Of a stretch of 64,000 nt of DNA, positions 840 through 63,433 are shown in pieces. Position 1 is the first letter of the stretch. Each line of letters starts with the position of its first letter. Source of the DNA: Azolla caroliniana (lineage: Eukaryota > Plantae > Polypodiophyta); NCBI GenBank assembly GCA_043228905.1, contig JBHGNT010000018.1, forward strand, positions 16,120,001-16,184,000. The letters are read 5' to 3'. A program made the translations under genes and the position numbers. Under the pieces are notes generated by a model. That model had not been told where the DNA came from and ran no database searches. It was given only the letters and a program-made list of their open reading frames with translations.

Positions 840-3097
840 CTGGCAAGGGCAAGACCGAAGGCACCAGAGTGATGCCGACAACAATTCCAGACCCTTCGGA
901 AACAGGGGGAGTCGAGGCGACTAGAATCGGCAAGGGAAATCCGTCGCGGAATGCTAGTATTGTGGAAAAAAAGGCCATAGGGAGAGCGAGTGCTGGAAAA
1001 AGCGCGCCGATTCGGAGAGAACCGGGCTGGATCAGGTTTCGGACAGACCGATAAGGGTAATCAGCAACGATTGCACTACGCCGAAGGATCCAGAGAAGGG
1101 TCAGCCTTCGTGACAAGACACGAAGCGAACTCGATGAAGAAGTTCACCCCGAAATCGGACGAGGTGTGGTATGTTGACTCTGGCGCGTCAAACCACATGA
1201 CGTGCCACAAGGAGTGGTTCTCATACCTTGAGAAACCGACCCAACTGGGAGTAGTCGCAACCAGAGACGACACTCCACATCCGATTGTGAATGTTGGTGA
1301 AGTTCCCCTGAGCCATGTCGGGCAGAAAGGGAAACTCATGAACGTTTTACACGTCCCGACAATCACAGAGAACCTGGTGTCGGTCGGGCAGATCGTTGAC
1401 TAGGGGACGCAGGTTCAGTTTACGCATCTCGGGTGCTTCATCGAGGAAGAAGGCCGAGTTATTGCGCAAGGGCGCAGAGGCGGGAGGATGTTTATCCTCG
1501 ACTCTAGCAACGGTGGCACTGCAATGCTCGCGAAAGGACAAAAAGTCGAGTCGGATATCGACTTATGGCACAAGCGGATAGGCCACGTTAACTATCAACG
1601 ACTTCAGGACCTGCAATCGAAACAGGTGGTGTTCGGATTGCCCAAATTTAGTGGCCGGAAGGCACAAATTTGTGAAGCCTGCCAGCTAGGGAAGCAACAC
1701 AGACTTCCCTTCCCTAACGAGCGTAACCGGAGCCGGAACAAGCTTGACTTGATACATTCCGATGTATGGGGGCCGACACAGAATGTTAGTCTTGCGGGAG
1801 TCGATATTTTGTCTCTTTGATCGATGACTATACGCGGCACATGTGGATCTACCTCATTGAGAAGAAGAGTGAAGTCTTCGATTGTTTCTGCAACCTCAAA
1901 GGGTTCGTGGAAATAGAAACAGGAAGGAAGATCAAGTGAATGCGGTCGGATGGCGGAAAAGAGTATTTTTCCGGTTAGTTCAACGAGTATCTGCAACAGA
2001 TGGGAATTTGGCGTGAATTCAGTTGTAGATACACGCCGGAGCAAAACGGCGTGGCCGAGAGGAGGAATTGGTCAATTGTAGAAGCAACATGCAATGCTGG
2101 AGGAAAAGAGCTTGCCCAAGTTCTATTGGGCCGAGGCAATACGAACCGTGGTTTACATCCAAAATCGGATCGGAGAAAAAGTGTCGGCGTATGAGCTGTA
2201 CTTCGGAAGGAAGCTGAATTTGCGACACTTGAGAGTTTTTGGTAGCATTGCATATGTGCATGTGCCGAAGGAAAAACGGAGGAAGTTGGACGCAAAAACC
2301 AAGAAGTGTATCTTGGTCGGCTACTCGGACGAGCAGAAGGGTTATAAGTGTTATAACCCTCGCACCAAACAAGCGCGTGTCCATGTCTTGGTACTTGCCT
2401 CCGACTCCGGACCTCACCTCCAATCTGAGTTCTGACGATGAGGTCAGCAAGGCCGAGATGCCTCCGGATGAGCCTGAAATCGGGACCCACGAAGAGAGTC
2501 CGATTTCATTTTGATTAAGCAGACCGGATGGACAACTGAGTCGGTTCGACCAGTCCGATGAAGAGCCGGCGAGTAGTGGAGACTCGGCCGTGCATTCCCC
2601 GCGCAGGAAGCCGAGGAGAAGGCTTACACGCAAGGAGAAAGGGAAGAAGAAGGTGTCGAATTACGGCACGGATAGGAAAGAGTCGGATCTATGCGAGTCC
2701 GACTCTGAGGGAAGTGATGACGGGCCTTCGAGAGCGAAGTCCGCATCGGCTAAGGAAGCCTCAACATCGGCTAATGACTAATTACGCCGATCTACCCGCC
2801 AGAAGAACCCTGTTGTGCGGTTCGGTTATAATGAGTACATGGCGCACCATTACGTGTACATGACGCGAGTGGCGGAAGTGCGTGAGCCGGAGAGCTACGT
2901 AGAAGCGGCGAAAGACGCGAACTGGCGTGCCGCAATGGAGGAAGAGATGCGCGCGTTGGAAGAAAATGAAACCTGGGACCTGGTTAATGCTCCAAAAGGT
3001 GTGAAGCCGATCGGATGCAGGTGGGTGTACAAGGTCAAGTACAACACCGATGGCTCGGTCAACTGATATAAGGCCCGGTTAGTAGCGAAGGTTACGC
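840..3097 (+). pseudogene. pol: CopB copia gag-pol, 5' part (zinc knuckle, protease, integrase, start of RT)
   Basis: WYVDSGASNHMT protease, LWHKRIGH/CEAC and HSDVWGP integrase, WVYKVK RT start. Several stops and frameshifts. Close relative of CopC. Confidence 0.92.
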
Positions 3098-3900
3098 TGT
3101 CGTAGTGTAGGTTGCACACTATGTGGAAATTATATTTTTGTCCCTCCGGATAAAGAATGGAGTGCTCGGTGAGAACCGGAAGAAAACGGCATACCAGCAA
3201 GGAGGAAAACGGCATACCGGCAAGGAAGAAAACGGCATACCGGCAAGGAAGAGCCGGATAAAGAGACATAAATGTAAAAGGAAAGGAAATACTCACTACT
3301 GCGCAGGGCGTGATTCAAACTCTGCACCTCCACGTTGACAAACCCCAACCTTACCATTACATTAACTTATCTTAAGTGTTTTAAATATAGATTTAATACG
3401 TATAAGACCTTTATTATGCATACCTTTATTAAAAGGTAAATCGTGTATTTTTTTAATATATGAAAAAGAAAAACACGAGACACTAAAAATAACTCATGCA
3501 CATCTAGCGTGCATGAGCCCTATACTTAGGAAATAAAAAAGCATCACATGCACATTTAGTGGACATGCACATTTTGTAAAAAAAAAGCATGAAGCCATGC
3601 TTAGCTCTTCCTCCCTTATATAAGGAGGAGAGAAATATGTAAAGGGTTGTTGATTATTTGGATTAAGTATTAATCAATACAAAAATTATTCGTGGGATTC
3701 ACGATTTATACATCTACTTCTCTCTTAACACCCTAAGTACCAATTAATATAGTATACTCGTGTGATTCACGAGTTTCTTATCTTTCTCTTTGCTATTTAC
3801 TCATAATTAATCTCTATCTCACGAACTTCTTTCTCCTAGTCCAAGACCTCTGTGGTTCCCACCCGACTCACGCAACGATCCGGAGCCGAAAGGCACGACA
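3098..3900 (+). repeat. G1 5' LTR
   Basis: TGTCG...CGACA. Three copies of a 23-bp repeat GGAAGAAAACGGCATACCGGCAA (about 3178-3250). TATATAA near 3617. Confidence 0.97.
3301..3368 (-). promoter_or_regulatory. tRNA-like Pol III A/B-box module in G1 LTR (second copy about 9482-9549)
   Basis: Minus strand reads TAATGTAATGGTAAG...TGGAGGTGCAGAGTTTGAATCACG. The other LTR has GTTCAAATC, implying an ancestral B box GTTCGAATC. Confidence 0.6.
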
Positions 3901-3904
3901 CAGT

Positions 3905-3922
3905 TGGTGAACCCGACGTGAA
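3905..3922 (+). promoter_or_regulatory. G1 primer-binding site, tRNA-Trp
   Basis: TGGTGAACCCGACGTGAA is complementary to the plant tRNA-Trp 3' end (TTCACGTCGGGTTCACCA, as I recall it). Confidence 0.88.
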
Positions 3923-3938
3923 CACGGGTGGCAAGGAG

Positions 3939-5978
3939 ATGGAGGCTCAACAAGCTAACAATATGATGGCGATGTTCGAACGGATGCTTCAAGAACAACG
4001 CACGATGTCGGAGATTTCGGCATCAGTAGAGCGGCTCGTGCAACGCAACGGGCAATTTAATGGTAAGGATGTGTCGCGATATTTGCAGGACTACAAGGCG
4101 GAGATGCTCCGGTGCCGGGCTTCGGAAGGACTGCAAGTGACATCCTTTAACCGGGTGGCGACCGACGGGCTTCAAGGGAGTATCCACGGGTTGCAACAAC
4201 AAAATCCGACGTGGGAAGCATTCGAAGAGGCGTTAAAGACCACGTTTGCCATCGAGGACTCCTCCAAGGCAACGCGGAGGGGATTCGAGGATTGGGTGGA
4301 AACGTCAGGTAAGGGGCTGAAGGTCCTCGAAGTGTTTTCGACATTCGAAAGTCGGTTCGGGAGGTTGTCCGCGAGAGATCAAACTATTCTTGCACCGGAC
4401 AAAGTCATCATGTTTTTGCGAGCTGTGGACGTCCGGGACCGGAAAGATCTCGGAGTGCTTCTTGAGGACACGACCACCGAAAGCGGCCTCACCGAAACAT
4501 GGGAAAGCGTGCGGGATATCGTCGCGCGGTACACGAAGAGGGGGCAATGGCTTGCCAACGAAGAAAAGAGGGTTTCGGAACCGATTCCGAAACCGAGAAC
4601 GGGACTGGAAGACCATCAACCGAGGGCTCGGGAGATTACGGCCGAGAAGGGAGTCGACGCGTCTACGGTGGAGCAGCTGCTGAAGGAGATGGAGAATCTA
4701 AAGATCGCGATGGTGAAGAAGTCGGATGACCGCCCCACAAGCTCCAAATATACGGATCGACGGTGCATATGGTGCGATAGCGCCGAACACGATCGGAGGG
4801 ATTGCGACGACCATAAGGAGGCGCTACGACGGGATCTCATCTACTACGAGGGAAACCGGATTCATTCGATGGACTCTCGGAAGCCACTCCGACCGAACTT
4901 CCGGAAAGGCGGCATGAAGAAGGTGCTCGAGGAGGAGTTAGCGGCAAGAAGCAACTATGCGACAACCGCGAGAATATGTGTCGGGGAGTCATCGGGAGCG
5001 AAGGCATCTTTCTGGCCGGAGGTGCTAGGAAACACCGAGAAAACCGACTCCAACGATATCCGAAACACCGCGGAAGGCGTCCGGGAAGCTACGGGATGGG
5101 AGTGCCCTGTCGACAAGAATAGCATATACGCTCTGTGTCAATTACATGAGGTGTATGTGGACGAGAAACGACGGCGCACGGAGGATGCGGCCGGACCATC
5201 GAAGATACCGGAAAGCTGGAACTCCGGAGGTAAGGGAAAAGAAAAGGCGACTCCGGCATTCAAGCTCGCCTCGGACATAGAACAACAAACCGACTTGAAA
5301 AGAGTGTTCGAGGAAAGAATCTTGGATAGCCGGGTAGATTTTTCGCTGCGGGAACTACTCGGAATAGCGAAGAAGGAGTTTCACGATCTTCTCGTGGATC
5401 TCGTGAAAAGGAAGAGACAAAGTACGGAGGAAAATGCTCCAAGGGTGAATGCAAATACCGTTTCAATGAACGACACCGAAGTGGAAGGCGAAATTCCGAA
5501 CTCCCACTATACAAGGCCACACTGGGCACGTGCGACTACGGAGACTCCGGTCCGAATCGGCAACATCAAAGAACCCGTGCTAGCATTGATTGATCACGGA
5601 TCGGAGATCAACTTGATGTCCAAGGAGTTCTACCGAAAGGGGAAGTGGCCTATAAACACCAACCATGGATGGAAGATTCGGGCAGCCACGAAAACGACAG
5701 AAGACCTATTTGCGGCTTGTCCGGATGTGACGGTAAAGATCGGGGATGTCGAAATTGACCAAAATTTCTTTGTGCAGGATGAGGTTTCACATTCTATCAT
5801 CCTCGGCCAACCCTTTATCACGGCTTCACGGATGGAGACGAAGGTGCTCGATAGTGGTGCGGCTTTTGCGCGAATTCGGAGCCAAAACGGAGGGAAATCC
5901 GTCCAATTCCTAACGGTGCCGGCAAATCACGAAAGGAACAAGAGGGAACTCTTGTCCCAAGTGAGAATGGATTTTTAA
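3939..5978 (+). CDS. gag: G1 ORF1: Gag plus aspartic protease
   Basis: Open 679-codon frame with CIWCDSAEHDRRDC zinc knuckle and LIDHGSEINLM protease. Homologous to G6 ORF1. Confidence 0.92.
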   Translation: MEAQQANNMMAMFERMLQEQRTMSEISASVERLVQRNGQFNGKDVSRYLQDYKAEMLRCRASEGLQVTSFNRVATDGLQGSIHGLQQQNPTWEAFEEALKTTFAIEDSSKATRRGFEDWVETSGKGLKVLEVFSTFESRFGRLSARDQTILAPDKVIMFLRAVDVRDRKDLGVLLEDTTTESGLTETWESVRDIVARYTKRGQWLANEEKRVSEPIPKPRTGLEDHQPRAREITAEKGVDASTVEQLLKEMENLKIAMVKKSDDRPTSSKYTDRRCIWCDSAEHDRRDCDDHKEALRRDLIYYEGNRIHSMDSRKPLRPNFRKGGMKKVLEEELAARSNYATTARICVGESSGAKASFWPEVLGNTEKTDSNDIRNTAEGVREATGWECPVDKNSIYALCQLHEVYVDEKRRRTEDAAGPSKIPESWNSGGKGKEKATPAFKLASDIEQQTDLKRVFEERILDSRVDFSLRELLGIAKKEFHDLLVDLVKRKRQSTEENAPRVNANTVSMNDTEVEGEIPNSHYTRPHWARATTETPVRIGNIKEPVLALIDHGSEINLMSKEFYRKGKWPINTNHGWKIRAATKTTEDLFAACPDVTVKIGDVEIDQNFFVQDEVSHSIILGQPFITASRMETKVLDSGAAFARIRSQNGGKSVQFLTVPANHERNKRELLSQVRMDF

Positions 5979-8900
5979 AGCGGACTGTTGCGGAGTGGGG
6001 AAGTGATAGTCCGAGAAGCCCTGATACCCCACACAGGAAGAAAACTCTCGGAGCAAAACAAGTACGAATCGGCCCGGATGGGGCATCTACGTACACGGCC
6101 GTAACCGGAGGAATGAAGAAACAATACCGACAAGTGGAGGATAAGTTACGGTCGGCATCAATAATAAAAGAAGACGAAGAAATCGTGGGAGTGATCGAGG
6201 AGGTGTTCTATGGGAATACACTACAACGGCTTGAAGAGCTTGCGGAAGATAAAAGCCAAGGGAACCGGGTAGTCCCGGTGGAATCGGTCGAGATGTACGA
6301 GATCGTTGCGAAAATGGGGCCGGATGCGCTCCGCAAAGAAGAAGCAATGGTAAGTACGAAATACAAGACCGTGGAGAAGAAGGTGAAACCGGCCGCGGGA
6401 CCACTACCCGCCGATAGCGAACAAAAGAAGAAAGAAGTCTCGGGAGATCCGACACTTCGGAAGTCCGTGGATATCGGACATGCCTTCACAGATGAGACCC
6501 GGAAGAAACTTCGGATCGGTGGAGGTGGGTTCCTCTTACAAGAAGAAGAAAAACGGTTTCGAGAGATGTTGGAGCAACATGGCAAAGCATTCGCGTTCAC
6601 ATCGAGGGAGATCGGATGCATTGATCCAAAGATAGTGGAGCCGATGGTGATTTTCACGATTGATCATGTACCGTGGAACCTGAAGCCGATTCCGGTGCCA
6701 CGGGCGCATATTCCGAAAGGCATCGACTTGCTCAAGGAGAAGGTGGCGATGGGGATTCTAGAGCCATCAAGTGCTCCGTACTCAAATCGATGGTTTACGG
6801 TTCCGAAGAAGAATGGGTCACTCCGATTCATCCAAGACTTGCAACCGGTGAACAAGGTCACGATCCGGAACTCGGGAGTCGGTCCGATAGTGGACGAATT
6901 CGCGGAAGCTTTTGCCGGACGTGCGATATACTCCATCGGGGATCTATACTCGGGGTATGACCAATTCCAACTAGCCGTGGAGAGCCGAGACATCACTACC
7001 ATGCGGACACCGATAGGACTAGTTCGAATGTGCACACTACCACAAGGAGCGACAAACTCGGTTGCACATATGTTGAACGCGATGAACAAGGTGCTTCGAG
7101 ATTGCATCCCGGAGATAACGATGCCGTTTCTAGATGACATTCCGATGAAAGGATGCGCGGTGGAAGAAAAAGATGAGACTATGGATGATCGGGGATGCCG
7201 AAAGTTCGTGGTCGACCATATTCATGATTGCGAGAAAGTGTTGCGAAAGCTAGAAGATGTGCACCTAACACTTTCCGGGGAGAAATCGGCATTCGGGCAA
7301 GAAGAAATATTGGTGGTCGGACATCTATGTGGACCCTACGGCCGAAGACCGGTATCGGGTGGGTCATCAATCAAGCCGACTCGGATGGTTCACGGTATCC
7401 GATCCGATTTGGAGCAAAGGTCCTCAACGAAAGGCAACGCGGATATGCACAAGTCAAAAGAGAATTGTGGGGAGTCGTGTCGGCGATAAAATCGGATCGG
7501 GATTATTTGATCGGAGCTGAAGTGGTGATCGAGACGGATTGTCTTCCGATACTCGGGATGATGCGGTGTTGTACGATACCGGATGTGGCTATGCTAAGGT
7601 GGATTGCATATGTCAAGTCACTTAATCCGGAGGTTCGACACATCTCGGGGAAGGACAACGCGGTAGCGGACATGTTATCGAGGGCGCGGTTTGAAGACGA
7701 CATAACCGAATCAGATAATGAAGAAGTTTCCGAAGACTACTTCACGTCAGAACACATATGCCGAGTGAACGTGATCCGAGAATTCCGGGAAGAAGAATAC
7801 GAGGGGGAAACCTTGATGATCGGGAAGATGCTACAAGAGGTCGAGGATTCAACCAATGATAAAGAAAGGAGAGCCGAGATCCGAAGGAAGAAGAGGCAAG
7901 TCCAAAAGTTCTTCTTGGAAAACGGTTTAATATGGAGGACGCCGAAAAGACCGGATGGGATACCACTTCGAGTAGTCGGGACGAAAGAGCAACGAAACCG
8001 GATAATATCCGAGTTCCACGAATCCGATTGGGCTGGACATCGAGGAACATGGGCAACTTTTGTGAAAATCAAGCAAAGATATTGGTGGAAGAACATGTAT
8101 AAAGATGTCGCGGAGTTCACAGAAAGCTGCGAGAAATGTCAAGTCTACTCCGGGGTCTGACACCGAGATGAGCTGCATCCGACATTCTCACCGACAATCA
8201 ACTTCAAGTGGATGGTCGACATTGTAGCTATGCCGACCGGGATTGGACAAAAGAAATACTTGGTGTTAGCTCGAGAAGATCTCACAAACCAAGTTGAAGG
8301 TCGAGCGCTTCGGAGGAAAACGTGTGCCGCGGTGTGCCAATTTCTTTTGGAAGAAGTGTTTTGTAGGTACGGCTGCGTAGGACAAGTGATTGCGGACCGG
8401 GGAGAACTCGACTCAGACAAAGCTAGGGGATTCTTCGCCAAACATGGAGTTCGGTTAACGTTGACAACGGCCTACAATCCGGAGGCCAACGGGAAGATCG
8501 AACGAGGACATAGTCCGATCGTGAAAGCACTTGCGAAGGCATGCGACGGAAGGGTGAAGGATTGGCCACAAATGCTTCCGTATGCACTATGGGCGGATCG
8601 GACGACGCATAGCTCCGTGACCGGTTACATGCCGGCAGAACTCATGACCGGACAAGCACCGGTAATGCCAACGGAAACCGCAATCGCGACATGGACAATA
8701 CTACCGTGGAAGGAAGAGATGAGCCGGGAAGAACTACTAGCGGTCCGGATACGACAACTGGAGGGAAGACCGAAAGATGTAGCGGAAGCGTCACGCCGAC
8801 AACAAGAAGCACGGTTCCGGAACAAAAGCCGGTTCGACACAAAGCACCGACTACGACCGAGGAGGATTGAAGAAGGAGATTGGGTGATCGTCTATGATAG

Positions 8901-9291
8901 TAGCTTGGACCATCAACATACAACGATGCGGAAATTCGCGAAAAGGTGGTTCGGGCCGTACGAGGTTCGGAAGGTCTTCGACAACGGGACGTACCGACTG
9001 TCCGAGTTTGATGGAACAAAACTACGAGTACCTATAGCCGGGAAGCGGGTGAAGATTTTCAAGAAGCGGACCGACGACAAACCTTATGTGATCCAAGTCG
9101 AGGCCGACAACGAGGAGCAATCGGACGAAGACCACAATGATGCGGGAAGCGAAGAAAGTGGATTGCAACTCATAGTTGACATAAGGGGAGAATCGGAGGA
9201 AGCTTCGGATGAAGACGGATACGAAGAATCAAGAACTTCGGCACATACCGGAGGATGTGCGGGTTTGGAGGGGGCGAGTGTCGTAGTGTAG
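5975..9291 (+). pseudogene. pol: G1 pol (RT-RNase H-integrase), in the -1 frame relative to ORF1
   Basis: LPQGATNS and FLDD RT motifs, integrase HHCC and core, GPY/F. About 97 codons deleted near 7350 with a frameshift. Premature TGA at 8158-8160. Confidence 0.92.
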
Positions 9292-10081
9292 GTTGCACAC
9301 TATGTGGAAATTATATTTTTGTCCCTCCGGATAAAGAATGGAGTGCTCGGTGAGAACCGGAAGAAAACGGCATACCGGCAAGGAGGAAAACGACATACCG
9401 GCAAGGAAGAAAACGGCATACCGGCAAGGAAGAGCCGGATAAAGAGACATAAATGTAAAAGGAAAGGAAATACTCACTATTGCGCAGGGCGTGATTTGAA
9501 CTCTGCACCTCCACGTTGACAAACCCCAACCTTACCATTACATTAACTTATCTTAAGTGTTTTAAATATAGATTTAATACGTATAAGACCTTTATTATGC
9601 ATACCTTTATTAAAAGGTAAATCGTGTATTTTTTTAATATATGAAAAAGAAAAACACGAGACACTAAAAATAACTCATGCACATCTAGCGTGCATGAGCC
9701 CTATACTTAGGAAATAAAAAAGCATCACATGCACATTTAGTGGACATGCACATTTTGTAAAAAAAAAGCATGAAGCCATGCTTAGCTCTTCCTCCCTTAT
9801 ATAAGGAGGAGAGAAATATGTAAAGGGTTGTTGATTATTTGGATTAAGTATTAATCAATACAAAAATTATTCGTGGGATTCACGATTTATACATCTACTT
9901 CTCTCTTAACACCCTAAGTACCAATTAATATAGTATACTCGTGTGATTCACGAGTTTCTTATCTTTCTCTTTGCTATTTACTCATAATTAATCTCTATCT
10001 CACGAACTTCTTTCTCCTAGTCCAAGACCTCTGTGGTTCCCACCCGACTCACGCAACGATCCGGAGCCGAAAGGCACGACA
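9279..10081 (+). repeat. G1 3' LTR
   Basis: Direct repeat of 3098-3900, preceded by PPT GGAGGGGGCGAG. Confidence 0.97.
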
Positions 10082-10622: not shown

Positions 10623-10684
10623 TGTCGCGTTGTTACGCGCGTGCACGTAAAAGGGGGCGGGACCACGGGGGTCTTGGACCGAGG

Positions 10685-10688
<4 letters not shown>

Positions 10689-10727
<39 letters not shown>
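10689..10727. repeat. (GA)n microsatellite inside E2 LTR
   Basis: About 19 GA units. Confidence 0.95.
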
Positions 10728-10729
<2 letters not shown>

Positions 10730-13700
10730 CACAGACACACAGAAGCGAGAAGGAGAGATATAGAACGGAACACTTGATTACAATAACAAGAGATTACAAA
10801 CTCCGACATGGGGTCCTACTCACGCACACCGACGATAGCCACACGACTCGAAGAAACAAAAGGGGAAAAAGGGGAGAGAGAGACTCTGCCGGAAGCACAC
10901 GGGCTATCCACGAAGCAGAGGCAGCGAACTCCCGACACCTGCAGAGAACGACGATCGGAGGAGAGAGAACTCGGCACACCGTTTTGCAGCAGCCCTTCGT
11001 CCTCGCCAACGCCCGATATCTTCTCTCCCCTCTCTCTTTTCCTTAAATAGTTCCCATCCCTAGGCAAATCGCCTTATTCCCTGTCCCTTCTAACAGAGAT
11101 ACGCACAATCCCCTAATAAATGTGTACTACTTAGTATTTACATCAGCTGATCCATTTATGAATCATGTACAAAAATCAAAATATCAAAATATCAATTCAC
11201 GCGTTCATCCATGTAAGAGCCGGTTCATGCGCCCTTTTCTCCAATTCTGCCTATGGCCGGTTTTCTTCACGACATCCACCCCCACCAAACCGCGCATCCA
11301 CTGACATGCGCTAGAGATGGGGAGTTACCAAAGAAAACCGGCTTCACTTGTCGCTCTCCGATTCTCTGTCGGGCCCGAACTGATCGTCGTTGTCGCTCCC
11401 GCTCGCAGGCTCCGGCTCGTCTTCGAACCGCTTCTTGAACGCTTTGATCCACTTCCCAGCCATTGACACCGTTAACCGTGTCCCGTAGAGTTCCGCGAGG
11501 TGGTACGTGCCGTTGTCTTTCGCGCTCGTCACCGTGTAGGGCCTGAACCACCTCCTGGCAAACTTTCGCACCGCCTTGTGCTGATTGTCGAGGCTGCTGT
11601 CGTATACCAAGAGCCAGTCGCCTTCCTCGATCTTCTTTGGTCGCAACCGGTGCGTCCGGTTGAACCGAGTCTTGCTCCGCTCCCTTGTCGCTCGCAACTT
11701 TTCCTTCACCCGTTTCACGTCCTCTGGCCTTCGCTCGAGTTGCCGAATCGGCGCCGCCAGCAACTCCTCCCGGCTCATCTCGTCCTTCCAACCTACCACT
11801 GCTCATGAAGAAACCGTTCGTTCCACCGGCATGATCGACTTCTATTTGTACATCAGCTTTGCCAGCATAAACCATGTCACTGAACTGTGCGTAGTTCAGT
11901 TCGTCCATAGTGCGTAATGAAGGAGCCGCGGCCAATTCCCGACCTGCCCTCCGCATGCACGCACCAACGCCTTTACGATCGGCCCGTGCCCACGTTCTAC
12001 CTTTCCGTTCGCCTCCGGATTGTATGCCGTAGTGAAGGAGAGTTTGACGCCTAGCCGGTCGAACAACTCCTCAGCTTCCCGCGCATCCAGCTCTCCCCGG
12101 TTCGCCACGATTTTCCCGACGCACCGGTACCGACACACTACCTCTTCGATCAGGAACCGGCATACCGCCGCAGTTGTCTTGTTCTGCAGTGCACGACCTT
12201 CCACCTGGTTCGTTGAGTCTTCCCGTGCAAGGACCAGGTATCGCATTTGTCCTACTCCCATTGGCATCGTCACCAAGTCCACCATCCACTTGAAATGGAC
12301 TGTAGGCGGGTAGGTCGGGTGTAGCTCGTCCCGGTGTTAGATTATGGAGGGCATCTGGCAGCTTTCGCAAGTCGTTACGAACCAATGCACATCTTGGTAC
12401 AACCCCGGCCACCAGTACTTCTCCTTCAGCTTCTCGAACATGGCCCACGTTCCGCGGTGCCCGACCCAGGGATTCTCGTGAAATGCCGCCAGTAGTTCCT
12501 CCTGTTCTCCTTTCTTTGTCACTACTCGGAGCGGGATGCCGTTTCTCTTCTTTGGGTGCCTCCATATGCACTTGTCCCACAGGAAGAATCGGTACGCCTT
12601 CTTCCGTACCCGGCTTGCCTCTTCTCTTGTCCATGCTGCGTCCAGCGTCATCGTCCGTAGGAACCTCCCGATTTGGAGCCACTCCCCGTCGTACCTGCTT
12701 TTGTCAAATTCGTTAAGCGTCGGAGTGTCCCTTTCCCTTGTCACTACGTTAGCCGACCCGAAGAAGTCCTCGCCGACTTCTTCGTCATCCGAAACCATGC
12801 CGTCTTCGTCGTTGAACCTTGCTCTCGAAAGCATGTCGGCCATGGCGTTATCCTTTCCGGAGATGTGTCGTATCTCCGGGTTCAGGGACTTAATGTACGC
12901 TATCCACCGGAGCATTGCTAGGTCCGGCGTCACGCATCCGGAAACCATCCTGAGTATCGGCAGGCAGTCCGTCTCGATGATCCCCTTCGTCCCGATCAGA
13001 TAGTCCTTGTCGGCCTTGACTGCCAAAACGATACCCCAAAGCTCGCGCTTAACTTGGGCGTATCCTCGTTGCCGTTCGCTCAATACCTTCGTCCCGAACC
13101 GGATCGGGAACCGTATGCCGTCCTTGTCCTCCTGACTGATTACCCACCTGATCCCGGTCGGGCTCGTGTCCACCGTCACGCAAATGGGGACATCCTTGCC
13201 GTAAACCGCTTTTCGGAGAGCCGGTGCTACCGTAAGCGCCTCCTTTAGTCTCCGTACCGACTCTGTGTGCTCCGTCCTCCACTCAAAGCTACGTCCCCTT
13301 TTCAATAGTATGTAGAGGGGTTCCACGACATGTGCGTAGTGCGGGATCCAGATGTGGTAGAACGCTGTCGTGAAGATTTCCGGCTATAGTGTGAAACCGG
13401 GGTGGAATGGGCAAATCGGTGGAGTGCAACATGTGCACGTGTATACTAGGAAATGGTGTGTAGAAAGAAGAGGGGAATTTTATCCCACATTGTAAGGTCC
13501 CCCCTTCCTTGGGCTATAAAAGGAAGGGCGGGGTCACTTATGAGCGGTTGCCTATTTTGAGGGAGAGAGGCATACCACTTAGGTCGAGGGTTTCCTATTC
13601 GGTTTTAGGGTTTCGGTTAGGGTTTTCTTCTTGAGTTTTCTTTTAGGGTTTTCTTATAGTCGTTTGGTGTGGCCATGGCGGCCACCATTGTTGTAATCAT

Positions 13701-13935
13701 TCGCTTGTTTTTAATATAGCTTGTTGTGGATCTTGATTCCATCTATTTTGGTCTACGCTTATGTCCTACTCTTCATCTTCTCATCCAGTGTTAAGCTTCC
13801 ATTTCTCATATCTTATTCTTCTCCTCTACTCCCTAGTCCAAGACCCCCGTGGTCCCGCCCCTTCTACACGCACGTGCGTAACAACGCGACATATTTGGTG
13901 AACCCGACGTGAAGAGGCGGCAAGGGAGGACGGAG

Positions 13936-48400: not shown

Positions 48401-48892
48401 TCTTAAGCTTGGATCGTTAGCGACTTCCTTCATCTTTTGCCAGCTATCTTCCGGTAGCGGAACCGCAACTGGCTTGATCTTCTTATCCACCATTTTATAT
48501 TTCGTGTTGATGTCAGCTTCCTTCATCGAGATGCCACGACGGTATTCATCGATGATAGCGTACATGTTGACGGAGTTAACCGAAATCACGCGTTGGTTGT
48601 GAAGATAGCTCAAGTCCACGACGTCCTCGATTTCGCCGATGGTGTCGTTAAATGAGGCTTCTTCCATAATATGAGTCACGAACTCTCCTTCTTCTATTAT
48701 GTTCTCTTCTTTCAGCATCTTCTCGAATTCTTGTATCCGGCGCTTGTGCTTCTTGTCGGGTAGTACTAGTTTACATGCGCCACTAGGTGTGACACATGTT
48801 GCTTCTCCTTGCAATCCACGCATTCTTCTTTCTTGTGGGGTCTTGTGATTGCTCGGACTATTTGTGCCCCATGCTTCAATAGTCCGCTCTAA
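45404..48892 (-). pseudogene. pol: G6 pol (RT-RNase H-integrase) with one in-frame stop
   Basis: ORFs 48823-46472 and 46462-45404 are in the same frame, separated by TAG replacing TGG (KEKY*WP). Confidence 0.93.
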
Positions 48893-51087
48893 AAATCTGA
48901 GGATTCGCCTCCGAGACTATCTCGATTCCTTTCATGATTGGCTCGCACTGTTAGGAATTGGACCGATCTTTGGTTGTCAAGACTCTTTATTCGTGCGAAG
49001 GCTGCTCCATTATCGAACACTTTGGTCTCCATCTGAGATGATGTGATATAAGGTTGCCCTAGGATGACAGGATGCGACGCCGATTCTTGTACGAAGAAGT
49101 GTTGATCCATCTCCACATCCCCGATCGTGACTTTGACATTGGGACAAGCTCCGTACAAGTCCTCCGTAGACTTTGTTGCCGCGCGAATCTTCCATCCGTG
49201 GTTTGTATTGATTGGCCATCTTCCCTTTTTGTAGAAGTCGGTTGACATGAGGTTGATCTCCGAGCCGTGGTCGATCAAGGCTACCACGGTCTCTTTCTTC
49301 TCCCCGATCTTCACCGGCGTCTCCGTTGTCGCTCGTGCCCAATGAGGTCGAGTGTAGTGGTTGTCCACCATATCTTCATCGATTTCGTCTCTTGCCATCG
49401 TTATGGCATTCGTTTTTGCTTTTTGCGGCTTCTCTTCTTCCTCGTCCGATTGTTGTCTCTTTCTCTTTACAAGGTCCACGATCGTGTCATGGAACTCCTT
49501 CTTCGTAATGCCAAGCAATTCCCTCAAGGACAAAGTTACGTGGCTATCAAGAACTCGTTCTTCGAGAATCTTCTTTAGGTCCGTCGTCTGTTCTATGTCC
49601 GACCTTAGCTTATAGGTAGGTATAGTCCTTGTCCTCCGAGCGGGGTCTTCGACACCAACCTTCACAAGCCGCACCGTTTCTTCAACTCGTATGCTCGGCT
49701 CCCCTTTTCGGCTTGATTCTCGTTCCTCCGTTTGTAAAGGTCGACTCGTCTCCGCATCGTCCTTCTTTTTCACGTTCCTTGTTTCATGTATTTTAGATGG
49801 GCCTTGCTCTTCTATTCTCTTTCTCTTTTCTTCGACGAACACCTCGTGGTTGTCGCACATCACCTCTGCGAGTATGGTGTTGTCGTCCACCGAATCCGAC
49901 CACCCGGTTATGCTTTGCACGTTTCGGTCCGCAAGCTCTACCTCGTTCGATGTGACTTTTCCCTTCTTCTCATATTCGAGAACGGAAGTCCAAAACTTTG
50001 CTCCCGCTCTAGCAGCTTCAGTCTTGTCTTTCCCGACTCTTATTCCGGCCGACGCAGCATAGTGCATCGCATCCACATGAGTCGCATCGGCATCCTCCAT
50101 AGATTTCTTCATTCCTCCTCTTCCGAAATTCACCCGTAGGGGTCTTCTAGTCTCGCTTGAGCAGATCATGTTGTCCTCTATGTATACGATATTTTGTCGA
50201 ATCGCCTCTCGAAGGCTCGCACAATCCCTTCTCATGTGGTCCATGCTATCGCACCACACGCATCTAAAGGGTTCTTTTCCTTTAGGGCCCCGATGATTCA
50301 TGTTGGCTAGTGTGACCTTCTCGAACTTCTTCGCTAGCTCTTCAATGATGTCGTCATCAATCTTCTTTTCTTCCACGTTACTTTGTCTCAGCGGCTCAGC
50401 TACTTTCGGCGGTCTTACTTTCTCCGTGGTAGTCGGTCCCGTCAAGTCGGTGTCATCAACCCATTGGCGACGCTTGTCGAGCCTATTGCATGCCCGCTTC
50501 ACCGCGATCCAGTCCACTACGAGCCCATTTGCTTGGGTATCATCTTCGAGAAGAGTCCCCAACTCCCGTCTATCCTTTATGTCCACGGCCTTCAAGAAGT
50601 ACAAAGTCTTGTCCTCTTCAAGCAACACTTGGTCCATATTGGGGAGACGACTAAACATCTGGTCGAATTCGTCGTACACCCTCGAGACGCTCATCTTCTT
50701 ATTCTTCTTCTCTATCCACTTCATCAGGGCATGTCGAGTCATCCTCGTTGAGTCTTCTGTCACGAACTCCGCTAGTATCGTTTTCTCGAACTCGGACCAT
50801 GTTGTCTTTCCTTCTTGAAGCTCGATGACGCGTCTTTGGATGTTGTTGGCGACAACTCTCTTGAAGCTCGCGATTTGACGTGCCTCGGACACGTCCCTTT
50901 GATTCATCTCCCTCTTATATGCATCAAGGAACTTCGTAACGTTCCTTCCATCGAATTGGCCCTCGAGCTCTACGACACGATCGACAGCCTTCTCCACGCT
51001 CGCGTCGTTGTCCCGAGATCTCATCATTTGCTCGACGATTAGCATCATCCTTTCGAGCTCTCCCGCTTGGTTGTTTGAGGACGCCAT
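48889..51087 (-). CDS. gag: G6 ORF1: Gag plus aspartic protease
   Basis: Intact ORF with CVWCDSMDHMRRDC knuckle and LIDHGSEINLM protease. Ends in DF* like G1. Confidence 0.92.
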   Translation of the reverse strand: MASSNNQAGELERMMLIVEQMMRSRDNDASVEKAVDRVVELEGQFDGRNVTKFLDAYKREMNQRDVSEARQIASFKRVVANNIQRRVIELQEGKTTWSEFEKTILAEFVTEDSTRMTRHALMKWIEKKNKKMSVSRVYDEFDQMFSRLPNMDQVLLEEDKTLYFLKAVDIKDRRELGTLLEDDTQANGLVVDWIAVKRACNRLDKRRQWVDDTDLTGPTTTEKVRPPKVAEPLRQSNVEEKKIDDDIIEELAKKFEKVTLANMNHRGPKGKEPFRCVWCDSMDHMRRDCASLREAIRQNIVYIEDNMICSSETRRPLRVNFGRGGMKKSMEDADATHVDAMHYAASAGIRVGKDKTEAARAGAKFWTSVLEYEKKGKVTSNEVELADRNVQSITGWSDSVDDNTILAEVMCDNHEVFVEEKRKRIEEQGPSKIHETRNVKKKDDAETSRPLQTEERESSRKGEPSIRVEETVRLVKVGVEDPARRTRTIPTYKLRSDIEQTTDLKKILEERVLDSHVTLSLRELLGITKKEFHDTIVDLVKRKRQQSDEEEEKPQKAKTNAITMARDEIDEDMVDNHYTRPHWARATTETPVKIGEKKETVVALIDHGSEINLMSTDFYKKGRWPINTNHGWKIRAATKSTEDLYGACPNVKVTIGDVEMDQHFFVQESASHPVILGQPYITSSQMETKVFDNGAAFARIKSLDNQRSVQFLTVRANHERNRDSLGGESSDF

Positions 51088-53632
51088 CTCCAAGTATCAA
51101 TCTCGACTTGATCCTTCCTACCGCCTCTTTCACGTCGGGTTCACCACTTAATTATGTCGTGAAGATCCGTCACTACGCGCGGATCGTGAGGCGGAACCGC
51201 CGGGGTTCTGGACCAGAAGGATTTAGAGTCGATACAAGCTTTGGCGAGAAAGTACTTAAGATAGATTGGGAAAGAGAGAAGATGAGATTACACGATTGAT
51301 TTGATAACGAATTTCTTCTTCTTAATTTTCATAAAAAAAACCGTCCTTTTTCTCCTCCCCCTTCCCTCTTTTATAGATGCTCTCATGCATCTGAGGGTAC
51401 AAGACATGCATTAAGTATTACATGTGGTGCATGCTAACCATGTCACTCATTTTAGCTCTCATGTATGAGAATTTACATGTAAAAGTACAATGATAGAATT
51501 ATAATTTCAACTAACTACCATGGCTTAATGGTAAGCCAATTGACTCCTAACTTGGAGGTGCAAGGTTTGAATCCTTACTTGCCCTCCTTGTATATGTAAA
51601 TATGTATATATATTTATATATTTATTTATGACGCCGGTTCGCCGGATACCGGTGCCGGATGCCGGTCCGGTTTTGGTTGGCCAAACCCCTTTACGAGTAG
51701 CTAGCCCACCTCCACTCTTAGTTCAAGTTACCTTGAACTCTCTATGCTCCACACATAGACACAAAGATAATATCTTTTGCTCCACCTTATATATGATGAG
51801 AACTGTATTTGTCGTGCCTATGTGGGATATCTCACAATTTTCTCCTTTCCTTTTACAAACTTTATACCCTCATATCTTGACATTTAGTTGTCCGTTTCTC
51901 ATGTAATAAAGTGCATTCGAAACCTCCATCATTTTGTACTTAGATATTAAATCTATTTAAAATGTTATCTTCACAATTATTGTACTACGTGATTCATACT
52001 CGATTACGTACGTTTTATAGGATTTTCACACTATTGCCGAAAATCTTCATGACAACGCATTGTGGGCAGACCGAACTACGCATAGTTTGGTAACCGGGTT
52101 CATGCTGGCAAAGCTGGTGTATGGGAAGAAGCCGATCATGCCGATGGAGCGGACGATTTCCTCGTGGGCGGTGATAGATTGGAGAGACGAGATGAGCCAG
52201 GAAGAGTTGTTGGTTGCGCGGATTCGACAGCACGAGCGAAGACCGGAGGACGTGCAGCGGGCGAAGGCGAAGTTGCATGCAGCAAGGACGAAGAACAAGG
52301 GCTGGTTCGACCAAACGCACCGGTTGTGACCAAAGAATATCGAAGAAAGCGACTGAGTGTTGGTGTACGATAGTAGGCTCGACAACCAACACAAGGCGAT
52401 GCGGAAGTTCGCGAGGAGGTGGTTCGGGCCCTACGCCAAAACGAGCACAAACGACAACGGCACTTACCATCTCACAGAGCTCGGCGGGACGCAAATAGCG
52501 GTGCCAGTGGCCAGGAAGAGGATCAAGGCCTTCAAGAAGCGACACGAAGGCGAACCGGACCCGGCAAGTGCAGACCACGACAACGATTGGGCCGGAGCAA
52601 ACAGTGATTTGGAGAGCGAAGGGTGAGCACGGGCCGGTCTTCTCCGGCAAAGGATCTGACTTGGCGCATACCGGTGGATGCGCGGTTTGGTGGGGGTGAA
52701 TGTCCTGGAGAAAACCGGCCTTAGGCGGAATCAGTGTAAAAGGTGCATGAACCGGCCCTTACACGCGCGTACAAGTATTGATTAGTTGTACATAATTAGG
52801 AATAGGTCAGCTGATGTAAATATACTAGGTAGTACACATTTATTAACTAGGAAATCGATGTGTATCTCTGTTCGAAGGGACAACGAATAAGGATGATGTA
52901 TTCAGGATATGACGGCCCTCCCCGACGGCCTATAAAAGAGAGGGGAGAAGGCTGAAACAGGTATCACGTTTTGGCGAGGACGGAGTGTTGTCGGATTGGG
53001 GACCGAGCCTTCTCCTCCTCTATCATTGTTCTTTACAGGTTTCTGGGGCGGTTTCCCTTGCTTCGAGGAAAGCCCGAGTGCTTCCGGCAGAGGCTCCATT
53101 GTATGCGTGCAAGTGTGTGTGTGCGTTGGGTCTATTGTCGGCGTGCCAATTAGAATCTCACGGGCGTTGTAACCCTTTATAGTTGGAATTAATTCTCCAG
53201 TTCATTGTCTCTCTGTGTTTCTGCATGTTTTCCCCTTTCACTGTCTGGTGGGTGTGCATCTCTATTCATTCTGTACACGCGGTCGTGATCCATTTGGCTA
53301 GTAAGCGCTGCTTGCCGGAGGCCAGTGTTCGCCAGTTTGGCGCTTATGCTCTCCTCTCTCCTCTTATTTCTTGCACTCCTCGGTCCAAGGCCTCTATGGT
53401 TCCGCCTTAGTTTCATACGCGAGAGCGTAACAACATGACAACGTCAAAGTTTTAAAAACGGCAGTTCTAAAACGTAGAATACGTGTAGAATACATCAGAG
53501 TATTCTAAAATGTACTCTAAACGTAGAATACGCATTTTTTAACAACTATGCTTCCAACAATTCAAAACCAGAGTCAAAAAGGAAATAGGCCGACATATTC
53601 GATGTCTTCGATCGGACGGAGGTAAAGAATAC

Positions 53633-54425: not shown

Positions 54426-54900
54426 TGTCATGGAAATCCGCATGTACATGTCGGATCAAGCGGGACCAGGGGGTCTAGGACTAGGGAATGGAGGAAGAGA
54501 GGCCACTGGGCTTACAATGGTTATCCGGTCTGGTCATCGAAGGCCGGATACTGAGCGGTCGGGCTCGCAAAACCGAATCCTATCCGGTACTAACGATGGT
54601 CTCCAAAATCTAAGCACACCTGCCCTCAAGAACACGATTCCTTGGTCACCACACACCATATACAAATATTGGCGCAAACACGGGGAGACCGAAAACAATG
54701 GACACATAGAGAGAGAGCGAGAAAGACCGGATACATCAAAACCCAATAATCAATCAAAGCAGAGAAAACAGATATAAGGCCGACCTCAGGCCGGATACAG
54801 AGCTTGGAGCTGTCCGAGCACACACACGCACAGTGATGAGACTCTGGTCGAGAGCACACATGCTTCCTACGCGAGCAGAGGCCTCACCAACACCTCACCG
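54426..54900 (-). mobile_element. Truncated Trp-group LTR
   Basis: Begins TGTCATG and carries the group U5 motif (reverse complement CTAGTCCTAGACCCCCTGGTCCCGC). Flank CCGC. Other end missing. Confidence 0.65.
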
Positions 54901-55474
54901 AATACATAGAGTAGATTACATAAAGTTCTTAACATGACATCAAGAATACATAGAGTAGATTACATAGAGTACATAAAGTTCTTAACCCAATCCACTCTGT
55001 TATTGATTTGTCTCAAAATGTTGAAAATTCAACACTTACAACAAGAATCCATTGAATTGCATCAGGTACTAGATGTATAGAGTATAATCTAATGCAATGC
55101 ATTGTGGTTCTAAGTCATGCTTCTTGTTTGTCTTTGTGTTGTGTCTACAACCACATTTAGGATCCGATGCATTGTATCGGATTTTCAATTGGAAACAATT
55201 TGAAAAAATAAAAAATTCTTGGATTTTAAACTAGAATCCAATGCAACACATTCAATTTTTGTTGAAACTTTTATTTTATTTTTTTTACTTTTTTCATTTT
55301 TACCATAAAAAAATTTTTAAAATGGATTTTCAACTAAAATACGATGCACTACATTGTATTTTAGTCTATAGGGCTAGAATCCAATGCAATGCATTGGATT
55401 AAAGTGGAAAATCCATTTTTCTTTTATTTTTTTCAATGATTATTTTTTTGTTTCAAATGTCCAAGTGTTAAATG
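54901..55474. other. AT-rich segment with a local duplication and palindromic AATCCAATGCA/TGCATTGGATT motifs (DNA-transposon-like remnant)
   Basis: Direct duplication at 54901-54986; repeated ATGCA(A)TGCATT motifs. No clear termini. Confidence 0.4.
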
Positions 55475-60400: not shown

Positions 60401-61902
60401 TGTCGTGATCTTTTCGACACATAGTGTGAAACCACCCTCAAAAGAGAATAAAATAGTGGTCCAAATAAACTAATTTTCTCAAGTCAACTATAGTAATAAA
60501 TGAAAGGATAAAAAGTTAGAAGAGGTTTTCGAAAGTAGACAAAAATAGAGAAAAAGATGGGAAAAGAAAAGTTAGTCGTGGTTATGAGCAGCAAGGTCGA
60601 GTAAAAAGCTCATAATTTCCTTGTCAAATGTCCAACTTAGAAAAGAAAAGATGCATAAGAAAGCTAACCTAAAGAGCTTTCCAGAATATCTTGCATGTAA
60701 AATTTGAGGCTAGAAAACAGAAATAGTGAGGAAAAGATGAGTCGACTCATATAGACAAACTTTTTTTAGGGGAAACAGGCAAGCAATCCTAAACCTATAA
60801 ATAAGAGCCTATTCTAGTGAAGAAGGGGGGGAGGGAGAAGGAACACGGAAGCTCTACTAAATTGGAAAGCGGAAGAAGAAGGATCAACAACATCGAGAGG
60901 CATCATCAACAAAGAAACTCCTTCTATACTCCACTCTCTTCTTTCCTCCACCTCTCTTCCCCCATTCCTTTATACACAATCCTTCATATTCGCATCCAAC
61001 CCATTGTAAAATGATTCTTATATTATAAAAGAATCTATTATATTGATATAAACAAATGTTTTCTTTCATCTACTTGTCTTATGTGTAAATCTTGATTGTG
61101 CTTGTTTGTTATCGTCATTTGTGCTTATTTTTTTGTGTGTCTTGTGACAAGGGAGCGTTTCAGGCTTGCCCATGCACCTCTCCTTTCACAAAGGCATTCA
61201 AACTTACGTGTCTTGCGTGTTAATGTAAATCTTGCTTGTGTGTTCGTGCGGCTTGTGGCAAGGGAGCATTCGGGCTTGCCCATGCACCTCTCCTTTCACA
61301 AAGGCATTCGAAATTGTGTCTCCCATGTGTAAACCTTGCTTGTGTGTTCGTGCGACTTGTGGCAAGGGAGCGTTCGGGCTTGCCCGTGCACCTCTCTTTT
61401 CACAAAGGCATTCAAAACTCTATCTCTCGTGTGTGTAACTAAGGCTTTTCCTTGTGTGTTTGCATGTCTTGTAACAAGGGAGCATTTAGGCTTGCCCATG
61501 CACCTCTCTTTTCACAAAGGCATTCGAAACTCTATCTCTCATGTGTGTAAGTAAGCCTTTTCCTTGTGTGTTCGCGTGTCTTGTAACAAGGGAGCGTTCG
61601 GGCTTGCCCATGCACCTCTCTTTTCACAAAGGCATTCCAAACTCTGTCTCTCATGTGTGTAAGTAAGCATTTTCCTTGTGTGTCCGTGTGTAAGCCTTCC
61701 TCACGTGCATTCGTTCACCTTGTGACTAGGGGTTGATTCGGGCTTGCCCATGCACCGCTCCTTTTCACAAACACATTTGAATACTCGTGCCTTGTTTGTG
61801 TAAGCCTTCCTTGTGTTGTGTATGTGAGCCCTATTTCCTTCCTGTCCATAACCTCGGCGGTTCCACCTCACGATCCGCACATAGTGACGGATTTTCACGA
61901 CA
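60401..61902 (+). mobile_element. 1.5-kb solo LTR (Trp group) in CopH gag
   Basis: TGTCGTGA...TCACGACA, with both ends similar to the G6 LTR. Flanks CCGG and CTAG. TATA near 60796. Confidence 0.88.
61125..61800 (+). repeat. About 110-bp tandem repeat, 6 copies, in the solo LTR
   Basis: Anchor AAGGGAGC at 61149, 61260, 61364, 61476 and 61588, plus a degenerate copy near 61727. Confidence 0.92.
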
Positions 61903-63433
61903 CTAGAATACCGAAACCCGATTCACGGCGCTTTTACTCTCCAGCATGGTGCCGATTTTCTCCCAAAGCACATGAGCTTTACTTTCTTCATTGAAGTTGT
62001 TGTACATGCTCATGTCGATGAAGCACTGGATGTACGCCGTTGTCTTCATGTGCATTAGCTCCCATATTGCGGCATCAATCTTATCCGGTTTCTTGTCCCC
62101 GAACTGTACCAGCAGCTAGAGATCTTTTACCACGAGCATGTCCCTCATCTTTGGCTTCCACACTGGGTAGTTGGAGCCGTTGAGCTTGAACATGCTTCCG
62201 AATGACCATTCCCTTGTAAGCTCTGATACTAGCTTGTAGGAAATAGCGCGGAATATTGCTCGGCCACAACTGAGTCTTGAATCACTTCGATGAGAATCAA
62301 ATGCAAAAATGGGAAGTGGGGAGTGAAGGCATCTACACACAAACAACGGTAGAGAACACAGGATGTTAATGTGAAAACCCCTAAATGGGAAAAACCACGG
62401 GAGCCTACAAACTCCAAACTATCACTATATGAGAAAGGTACAAGCAGAGACTCGGAGGCAACGACCTCGAGCTTTATGTCTTCGCGGACCGGCGGTTACA
62501 ACAGAAAACTCGTTGTGTGTGTGTGTGTGTGTGTGCACGTCTCTCTCTCTCTCTCTCTCTCACTCACTGTGTACACACTCTATCAACAACCCTCATCACA
62601 TAAAGTGATTGCCCTAAGTCATCTTTATACTTATATGACTTTAGGCCTATTTACAAATATAGCCTCGATGGGCTCACAATGAAACATATTTACACATATG
62701 TTCTTCGATCTGGTTTGCACCGGATCCATTCGGATTCACTCAATCTGGTTTCCAGGTCTCATCCATAACCCTTCCGGATCCGGTTCCTTCATCCAACTTG
62801 TCCGCTCCGGCTCGTCCAAATCCCATCCAGAGGCACCGAATTCCCAACAAGTTTTTTGGCTGACAACACCTTCATCCGCATGTCCGATCCATTCTCAGTC
62901 GTGTGAAACTTCATCAGAGCAAACTCCTTTTCTTCTACTCACTCTTGGAGCCAATGATATCTTCTCTGGATGTGTTTGGTCCTCGAATGGTAGGTGGCAT
63001 TTTTCGCAAGGTGGATGGCACTCTGGTTATCGCAATGGAGTTGGAATTCCTCCTGGCGAATTCCCAGCTCACCGATAAACTCCTTCATCCATATGATTTC
63101 CTTGCCGGCTTCCGATGTGGCCATATATTTGGCTTTCGTGGTCGACAGCGCCACGGCCTTCTACAGCCTCGATTGCCACGAAACGACTCCCCCCTGCATA
63201 AGTCACTATGTACTCGGACGTGGATTGGCTAGTATCCACATCAGCCAACATGTCCGGGTCAGTATAACCTTCCAGTGTGGGGTTACCCGAACTGAAACGA
63301 AGACACACGTTCAAGGTGCCTTTTAGGTACCAAAGTAGCCACTTCACGGCAGCCCAAAGCTCTCTTCCGGGGTTGCTCATATATCGGTTAACCACGTCGA
63401 TTGCGTATCCTATGTCTGGCCTAGTACATACAG

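What the first reader, a model, noticed from the sequence alone, without database searches (positions are those of the whole stretch)
3094..61906. Trp-primed gypsy group appears to integrate only at CpG-centred 4-bp targets
Seen: the target sites are ACGC (G1), ACGT (E2, one flank), ACGC (E3), ACGC (solo 20582), ACGT (G5), ACAC/ACGC (G6), CCGC (54426, one flank) and CCGG/CTAG (solo 60401). All eight have a central CG in at least one copy and six fit palindromic RCGY. The mismatched copies differ only by CpG-type transitions. G5 hit an ACGT inside a very AT-rich MITE. The 5-bp TSDs of other elements here (CGCTG, AGTTT, AATAC) share no such pattern. Even at a generous CpG frequency of 0.1 per position, 8 of 8 has probability about 1e-8. 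Inference: the integrase selects CpG, possibly methylated, which could steer these elements into silenced TE nests; I recognised no chromodomain in their integrases.
Basis: partly seen in the sequence, partly recalled or inferred. Interest (0 to 1): 0.78.

Follow-up and report, generated by a model that had tools for sequence, protein, structure and literature searches.

The report
Phygy-type retrotransposons inserting at CG sites
These jumping genes really do sit on four-base target sites centred on CG, likely because their integrase picks that pair, but this habit is already published for the moss Phygy lineage to which they probably belong, and a role for DNA methylation remains untested.

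Summary
All eight boundaries and target letters are as stated, and empty-site paralogues confirm 4-bp duplications. Both mismatched pairs trace back to CG targets (ACGC, CCGG). It replicates outside the window. Of 15 independent flanks in metagenome contigs, 12 are NCGN against a 3.6% background, and 3 are one CpG transition away. The majority flank in four sequencing runs ends ACGT.

It is not new. Neumann et al. 2019 (PMC6317226) list moss Phygy elements as 4-bp TSD 100% NCGN, tRNA-Trp primer 81%, no extra domain. These elements match on TSD, primer (tRNA identity recalled), no chromodomain and no extra RNase H. Their named relatives are in liverworts and ferns. No Phygy reference sequence was available, so membership by tree is untested.

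RCGY is too narrow (7 of 15); VCGB fits better. The likely mechanism is a 4-bp-stagger integrase that bends the target at a central pyrimidine-purine step and reads CG. Methylation sensing and steering into silenced nests are unsupported. This scan earlier noted NCGN targets in a fungal-type genome (e1-10582392).

The parts
3098..10081 (+). G1: full-length non-chromovirus Ty3/gypsy element (6,984 bp); LTRs 3098-3900 and 9279-10081; PBS at 3905; gag-pro (DUF4100) 3840-5978; pol in broken frames 5855-9291; inserted in a copia element
   Evidence: LTRs differ at 5 of 803 sites
3094..3097 (+). G1 left TSD ACGC (right copy 10082-10085 ACGC)
   Evidence: empty-site paralogue
10623..19261 (-). E2: 5'-truncated element; 3' LTR 10623-11274; RT-RH-INT remains, split by E3; single flank 10619-10622 ACGT
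13366..18319 (+). E3: non-autonomous element (PBS 13896, short gag start, low-complexity interior); LTRs 13366-13891 and 17794-18319; TSD ACGC at 13362-13365 and 18320-18323; inserted in E2 pol
   Evidence: LTRs differ at 17 of 526 sites
20582..21230 (-). Solo LTR; TSD ACGC at 20578-20581 and 21231-21234; inserted in a copia element
36846..53440 (+). G5: internally deleted element (PBS 43062, then RH-INT only); 5' LTR split by a copia (37313-42779, TSD CGCTG); 3' LTR 52701-53440; TSD ACGT at 36842-36845 and 53441-53444; in an AT-rich repeat
   Evidence: LTRs about 6% diverged (46 of 738)
44341..52054 (-). G6: full-length element (7,714 bp) nested in G5; 5' LTR 51155-52054, 3' LTR 44341-45331; PBS 51133-51146; gag-pro (DUF4100) 48889-51096; pol 45404-48916 with one in-frame stop; TSD ACAC 44337-44340 / ACGC 52055-52058
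   Evidence: LTRs differ at 8 of 900 sites
45404..46471 (-). G6 integrase (end of zinc finger, DDE core D45-D104-E139, SH3-like C-terminal domain with GPY motif, acidic tail; no chromodomain)
54426..54930 (-). 3' end fragment of an LTR of the same group (upper coordinate approximate); single flank 54422-54425 CCGC
   Evidence: the same LTR end occurs in L002, flanked by ACGT
60401..61902 (+). Solo LTR with ends related to G6's and an internal ~110-bp tandem array; TSD CCGG 60397-60400 / CTAG 61903-61906; inserted in a copia gag

Best explanation
[quoted passage not shown] Shown: the 4-bp duplications, the CG centre, its replication in other DNA, the shared primer site, the absence of a chromodomain and of an extra RNase H, and kinship with liverwort and fern elements. 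Inferred from foamy-virus integrase: a 4-bp cut stagger needs a sharp bend that favours a pyrimidine-purine step. Inferred: narrowing from any such step to CG comes from lineage-specific contacts. Candidates are the conserved Glu107, at the position of PFV Ala188, and the conserved QH..RK loop of the SH3-like domain. The mismatched copies are later deamination of methylated C. Methylation is probably not needed for target choice.
For: Window boundaries and empty sites. Outside the window, 12 of 15 flanks are NCGN and 3 of 15 are one transition away. Loose-end majority ACGT from 95, 110, 88 and 47 contigs in 4 of 4 runs. Two further insertion joints in run X1, at GCGT and ACGT. CG is only 14-36% of local YR steps, so general YR flexibility cannot explain the result. 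Published Phygy profile: 186 elements, 4 bp 100% (NCGN), tRNA-Trp 81%, no extra domain. Best solved relatives are PFV and Ty3 integrases, by sequence and by fold. PFV consensus VYRB with a central unstacked YR step (PMC4422553 passages). No T at the first TSD position in 28 flank copies and one A at the last, which matches VCGB. Glu107 is E in 41 and D in 3 of 44 rows; Q277 is conserved in 42 of 43 and K283 in 41 of 42.
Against: No P. patens Phygy sequence could be obtained (the REXdb files were too large to read), so lineage membership rests on structural features. G1 (6,984 bp) is shorter than the published Phygy range (7,656-9,968). TatI also has 4-bp TSDs and a Trp primer; it is excluded only by the missing extra RNase H. 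The integrase model is mediocre (mean pLDDT 70, pTM 0.50) and has no DNA. The PFV sequence alignment covers only residues 1-195, so the C-terminal loop candidate is inference. Loose-end lines are majority letters mixed with PBS-linked contigs (agreement 0.37-0.39) and give no fraction. One small row (X6, 8 contigs) ends ACGA, and one (X18, 3 contigs) ends ACC before a C.
Confidence: 0.85

Rival explanations
1. The integrase prefers methylated CG, directly or through easier bending of 5mCpG, and so steers these chromodomain-less elements into silenced TE nests.
For: Six of the eight window targets lie in recognisable LTR elements and one in an AT-rich repeat. 8 of 13 metagenome 5' flanks are TE-derived. 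TSD CGs have decayed in 2 of 6 two-flank window pairs and possibly in 3 of 15 outside flanks, so these sites were methylated at some time. Phygy nests into Tcn1 in P. patens (PMC6911290 passage) and is enriched at centromeres in a liverwort (PMC12885004 passage).
Against: The window is a TE nest, so nesting is expected. Decay shows methylation after insertion, not before. 5 of 13 flanks have no TE match. No methyl-binding domain was found. Ginger1 (CCGG/CCGT) and ZAM (CGCGCg, bound in vitro) show CG-centred targeting by related integrases with no methylation invoked. No methylome was available.
Confidence: 0.12
2. The integrase only wants a flexible pyrimidine-purine centre (TA, CA, TG, CG), and the CG excess comes from small numbers in a CG-rich region.
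For: This is the general rule for 4-bp integrases. Three single flanks have TG or CA centres. The window is not CpG-depleted (observed/expected 1.02).
Against: CG is a minority of local YR steps (14-36%). No TA centre occurs among 23 sites, although TA outnumbers CG 44 to 11 around G5. The published Phygy set is given as NCGN.
Confidence: 0.03
3. The elements are not Phygy but a separate lineage, for example fungal-related, that shares or evolved the same NCGN preference.
For: The G6 gag resembles DUF4100 clusters whose commonest phylum is Basidiomycota (ranks 2-3). An earlier, unchecked note reports NCGN 4-bp targets in a fungal-type genome. No direct Phygy comparison was possible.
Against: TSD, primer and domain content coincide with Phygy. 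The top Atlas cluster is Streptophyta. RT relatives at 54-74% are from Riccia and Adiantum. That DUF4100 was defined from Physcomitrella is recalled, not checked.
Confidence: 0.1

Closest known systems
Ty3/gypsy non-chromovirus Phygy lineage (Neumann et al. 2019, PMC6317226; passages and Additional file 5 read)
   Same: 4-bp TSD with NCGN motif; tRNA-Trp primer; no chromodomain, extra RNase H or extra ORF; coding region fills the interior.
   Different: G1 is shorter than the published range. The data here suggest the tighter VCGB, with ACGT commonest. Non-autonomous derivatives (E3, G5) keep the preference.
OTA/Tat/TatI lineage (same paper)
   Same: 4-bp TSD (4 of 4) and tRNA-Trp primer (75%).
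   Different: TatI carries an additional RNase H (100%); none was found here, and no NCGN preference is listed for TatI.
Ginger1 DNA transposons (Bao et al. 2010, PMC2836005; passages read)
   Same: Gypsy-like integrase with a GPY/F motif; TGT termini; 4-bp TSD centred on CG (CCGG 75%, CCGT/ACGG 24%).
   Different: Cut-and-paste DNA transposons of animals with TIRs; no RT or LTRs; CC preferred at the start of the target.
Drosophila ZAM (Faye et al. 2008, PMC2527525; abstract read)
   Same: Gypsy-type integrase with an intrinsic preference for a CG-containing target (CGCGCg), bound directly in vitro; 4-bp TSD (PMC3276498 table passage).
   Different: Longer motif; insect element; relationship to this lineage not tested.
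Prototype foamy virus integrase (Serrao et al. 2015, PMC4422553; passages read)
   Same: Closest solved structure; 4-bp TSD, central YR step, VYRB consensus.
   Different: A retrovirus; weak preference for any YR step rather than near-absolute CG; Ala where this lineage has Glu.

Membership tests
Phygy | RT/RH/INT fall in the Phygy clade of REXdb (primary criterion) | not testable with these tools
   REXdb fasta and the per-element table were too large to read; no named P. patens hit among the listed rows. The tree only shows G1, E2 and G6 grouped together (support 94/90) among Riccia and Adiantum relatives.
Phygy | Ty3/gypsy domain order GAG-PROT-RT-RH-INT | tested here: met
Phygy | 4-bp TSD | tested here: met
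   6 of 6 two-flank insertions; empty-site alignments for 5 of them
Phygy | NCGN target motif | tested here: met
   8 of 8 in the window; 12 of 15 outside, the other 3 one transition away
Phygy | PBS complementary to tRNA-Trp | tested here: inconclusive
   The same PBS follows all four 5' LTRs. Its match to plant tRNA-Trp is recalled; there is no tRNA gene in the window to check it.
Phygy | No chromodomain, aRH or extra ORF | tested here: met
   Pfam to E<=1 on G1/G6 proteins and three full-length relatives; the integrase ORF runs to the PPT or LTR
Phygy | Length 7.7-10.0 kb (descriptive; the authors call size of little value for classification) | tested here: inconclusive
   G6 7,714 bp is inside the range, G1 6,984 bp is below it
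TatI | Additional (archaeal-type) RNase H domain | tested here: not met
   Only the RT-associated RNase H is detected in G1, G6 and relatives
Chromoviruses (Tcn1, Galadriel and others) | Chromodomain at the integrase C-terminus; Met or self priming | tested here: not met
Ginger1 | DNA transposon with TIRs and no RT | tested here: not met
   LTRs, PBS, PPT and RT are present

The most novel reading that the evidence does not exclude
The Phygy-type integrase is a reader of methylated CG: lacking a chromodomain, it uses 5mCpG at the centre of a VCGB target to land in silenced DNA. The same CG-specific integrase lineage may span non-seed plants and fungi.
Probability: 0.12. Interest if true: 0.75.

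Novelty: new member of a known kind. Interest (0 to 1): 0.17.

Why it matters
As it stands it extends a published but little-followed oddity (Phygy is the one plant LTR lineage that Neumann et al. found to have a TSD motif) to several more families and another host. It also sharpens the motif to VCGB and names candidate residues. A near-absolute dinucleotide preference is unusual for an LTR integrase and makes a clean biochemical system for how a 4-bp intasome reads its target. It would matter much more if methylation proved to be the signal, since that would be a chromodomain-independent route to heterochromatin. Nothing here shows that.

Tried and rejected
A PBS pattern found 0 matches in viral contigs. 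The integrase alignment found no relative in viral contigs. In prokaryotic genome contigs it found 3 loci, two apparently stray eukaryotic pieces and one weak match; only L024 was inspected, and it gave no usable outer flank. Of 23 metagenome loci, I dropped 3 as chance matches without LTR similarity beyond the pattern (L006, L013, L015; flanks CCGA, AACT, CCGA). Six began at a PPT, so they are 3' LTR starts with no host flank there, and L023 duplicates L009. No paralogue in the held data resolved the original letters of ATGG, ATGA or ACAG. No motif beyond the TSD is evident, apart from A at -3 in 16 of 28 non-independent copies. Cluster look-up gave no moss names. The Atlas search with the integrase returned generic gypsy integrase clusters. 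A 5-bp reading of the TSDs was rejected by the empty-site alignments. The literature search for methylated-CpG targeting by a retrotransposon integrase (six terms) returned 0 papers. 'NCGN' with 'retrotransposon' returned 2 papers, one relevant. 'Phygy' returned 18, most seen only as listings. Subscription papers are not covered.
Full report
Setting. The window is a nest of LTR retrotransposons: copia elements, fragments of another gypsy element with an SH3_Tf2-1 domain, and eight insertions of one gypsy group. No whole genome is held. Named relatives of the group's pol and integrase come from Riccia sorocarpa, Riccia fluitans, Adiantum nelumboides and Ceratopteris richardii, and unnamed metagenome proteins reach 93% identity. 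The host is therefore likely a non-seed land plant; I did not identify it.

Observation. I confirmed every boundary and flank: G1 ACGC/ACGC, E2 ACGT (one side), E3 ACGC/ACGC, solo 20582 ACGC/ACGC, G5 ACGT/ACGT, G6 ACAC/ACGC, fragment 54426 CCGC (one side), solo 60401 CCGG/CTAG. All termini begin TGTC, and four carry the same PBS. Empty-site comparison with uninserted paralogues in the window shows that exactly four bases were duplicated for G1, E3, G6 and both solos. For G6 the paralogue reads ACGC, and contigs from three runs join across the empty site onto that copy. For solo 60401, CCGG preserves the host gag frame with the Arg of the paralogue and CTAG makes a stop. Both mismatches are thus later transitions at a CG. 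About half of the differences between paired LTRs also fall at CpG (3 of 5, 8 of 17, 4 of 8, 20 of 46), so such decay is routine here.

More than chance. Local CG frequencies around the eight sites are 0.03-0.10, with a product of 1.3e-10, but that test is post hoc. For an independent test I scanned metagenome contigs with a pattern for the LTR 5' end that contains no flank letters (23 loci). I dropped three chance matches and one duplicate; six matches were 3' LTR starts behind a PPT. The 13 distinct 5' flanks were ACGT x5, ACGG x2, GCGT, CCGT, CCGC, ATGG, ATGA and ACAG, and two 3' flanks were ACGG and ACGT. That is 12 of 15 NCGN at background 0.036 (P 1.7e-15). The other three are each one CpG transition away, though with one flank they cannot be told from true TG/CA targets.

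Read data agree. Laying four runs on the G6 LTR end gave loose ends at the exact boundary from 95, 110, 88 and 47 contigs, with majority letters ending ACGT in 4 of 4 runs. These lines are mixed with PBS-linked contigs and give no fraction, and two small rows deviate. Two joints in run X1 show further insertions at GCGT and ACGT.

The motif. RCGY fits only 7 of the 15 outside flanks. All 22 sites with an intact CG (8 window, 12 metagenome, 2 joints) lack T at the first and A at the last position, that is VCGB. By hand that is about 3e-6 if those positions were uniform, and it is post hoc.

What it is. Neumann et al. 2019 (PMC6317226) write that Phygy elements have an insertion preference for NCGN, the only exception among plant LTR lineages (passage). 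Their Additional file 5 lists Phygy as 186 elements, 4 bp 100% (NCGN), tRNA-Trp 81%, no extra domain, 7.7-10.0 kb. The window's elements match in domain order, TSD length, motif and primer site (its tRNA-Trp identity is recalled), and they lack a chromodomain or additional RNase H. TatI, the only other lineage with 4 bp and Trp, always has the additional RNase H. The per-element table and the REXdb sequences were too large to read, so the defining phylogenetic test is open. My tree only shows G1, E2 and G6 together among liverwort and fern relatives (24 selected homologues plus three window RTs). Jedlicka et al. 2019 (PMC6911290, passages) also report 4-bp TSDs for Phygy and GC-rich centres in pooled 4-bp TSDs.

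How it likely works. The integrase has a DDE core (D45, D104, E139). Its closest solved relatives are foamy-virus and Ty3 integrases, by sequence and by fold (model pLDDT 70). For PFV, a 4-bp stagger requires a severe bend that unstacks a central YR step; the consensus is VYRB, with base contacts from Ala188 and Arg329 (PMC4422553 passages). VCGB is a subset of that consensus. Because CG is only 14-36% of local YR steps and TA never appears, bending alone is not enough, and a direct or indirect readout of CG is inferred. Candidates are Glu107 in DRGE, aligned with PFV Ala188 in DQGA (E or D in 44 of 44 rows), and the conserved QH..RK loop in the SH3-like domain (equivalence to the Arg329 loop is inference). 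Related integrases show that such specificity can be intrinsic: ZAM integrase binds CGCGCg in vitro (abstract) and Ginger1 makes CCGG/CCGT duplications (passages).

Methylation. Nothing here shows that targets were methylated before insertion. Nesting in the window is expected. Outside it, 8 of 13 5' flanks are TE-like and 5 are unassigned, with no background to compare. Reports of Phygy nested in Tcn1 and enriched at liverwort centromeres are compatible with steering but equally with selection. My one search for methyl-CpG targeting by a retrotransposon integrase found no paper, which does not prove absence from print. I keep it as the novel case at 0.12.

Verdict. The feature is real and well replicated, but the phenomenon is published for the lineage to which these elements very probably belong. 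It is a new member of a known kind, interest 0.17. The additions are a tighter motif, another host, and candidate residues. Together with Basidiomycota-dominated DUF4100 gag clusters, it suggests that the lineage may be wider than plants; I did not test that.

Noticed in passing
window 48889-51096 (-) and 3840-5978 (+): The gag-protease carries DUF4100; ESM Atlas neighbours ranked 2-3 are clusters whose commonest phylum is Basidiomycota. With the earlier fungal NCGN note, this hints at a CG-targeting lineage shared by fungi and non-seed plants.
   Followed up: partly
all group LTR ends, e.g. 44341-44360 and 45312-45331: LTR termini are inverted repeats of 5-12 bases starting TGTCG (TGTCGTGAAGAT at both ends of the G6 LTR), so the element ends themselves carry a CG; single ends of G5 and G6 show changes at this CG.
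   Followed up: no
window 13892-17793: E3 is non-autonomous: after the PBS only about 70 residues resemble gag; the rest is purine-skewed tandem repeats (about 220-bp and 380-520-bp units) with long low-complexity open frames and no Pfam match.
   Followed up: partly
window 43062-52700: G5 jumps from its PBS almost directly to RNase H, lacking gag and RT, yet has both LTRs and a perfect ACGT duplication.
   Followed up: partly
window 37313-42779: A very young copia (LTRs differ at 1 of about 690 sites, Met-type PBS at 42077) with long open frames sits inside the G5 5' LTR, with the 5-bp TSD CGCTG.
   Followed up: partly
window 61101-61830: Solo LTR 60401 is enlarged to 1.5 kb by a tandem array of about 110-bp units.
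   Followed up: no
L002:455-813 and window 54350-54498: L002 holds two group LTR ends 284 bases apart; the stretch between them resembles the DNA just left of the 54426 fragment, so the same repeat may have been hit by this group more than once.
   Followed up: no
L024, L025: Close integrase relatives (65% and 56%) lie in contigs filed under a cyanobacterial assembly and a Streptomyces assembly; probably stray eukaryotic DNA.
   Followed up: no
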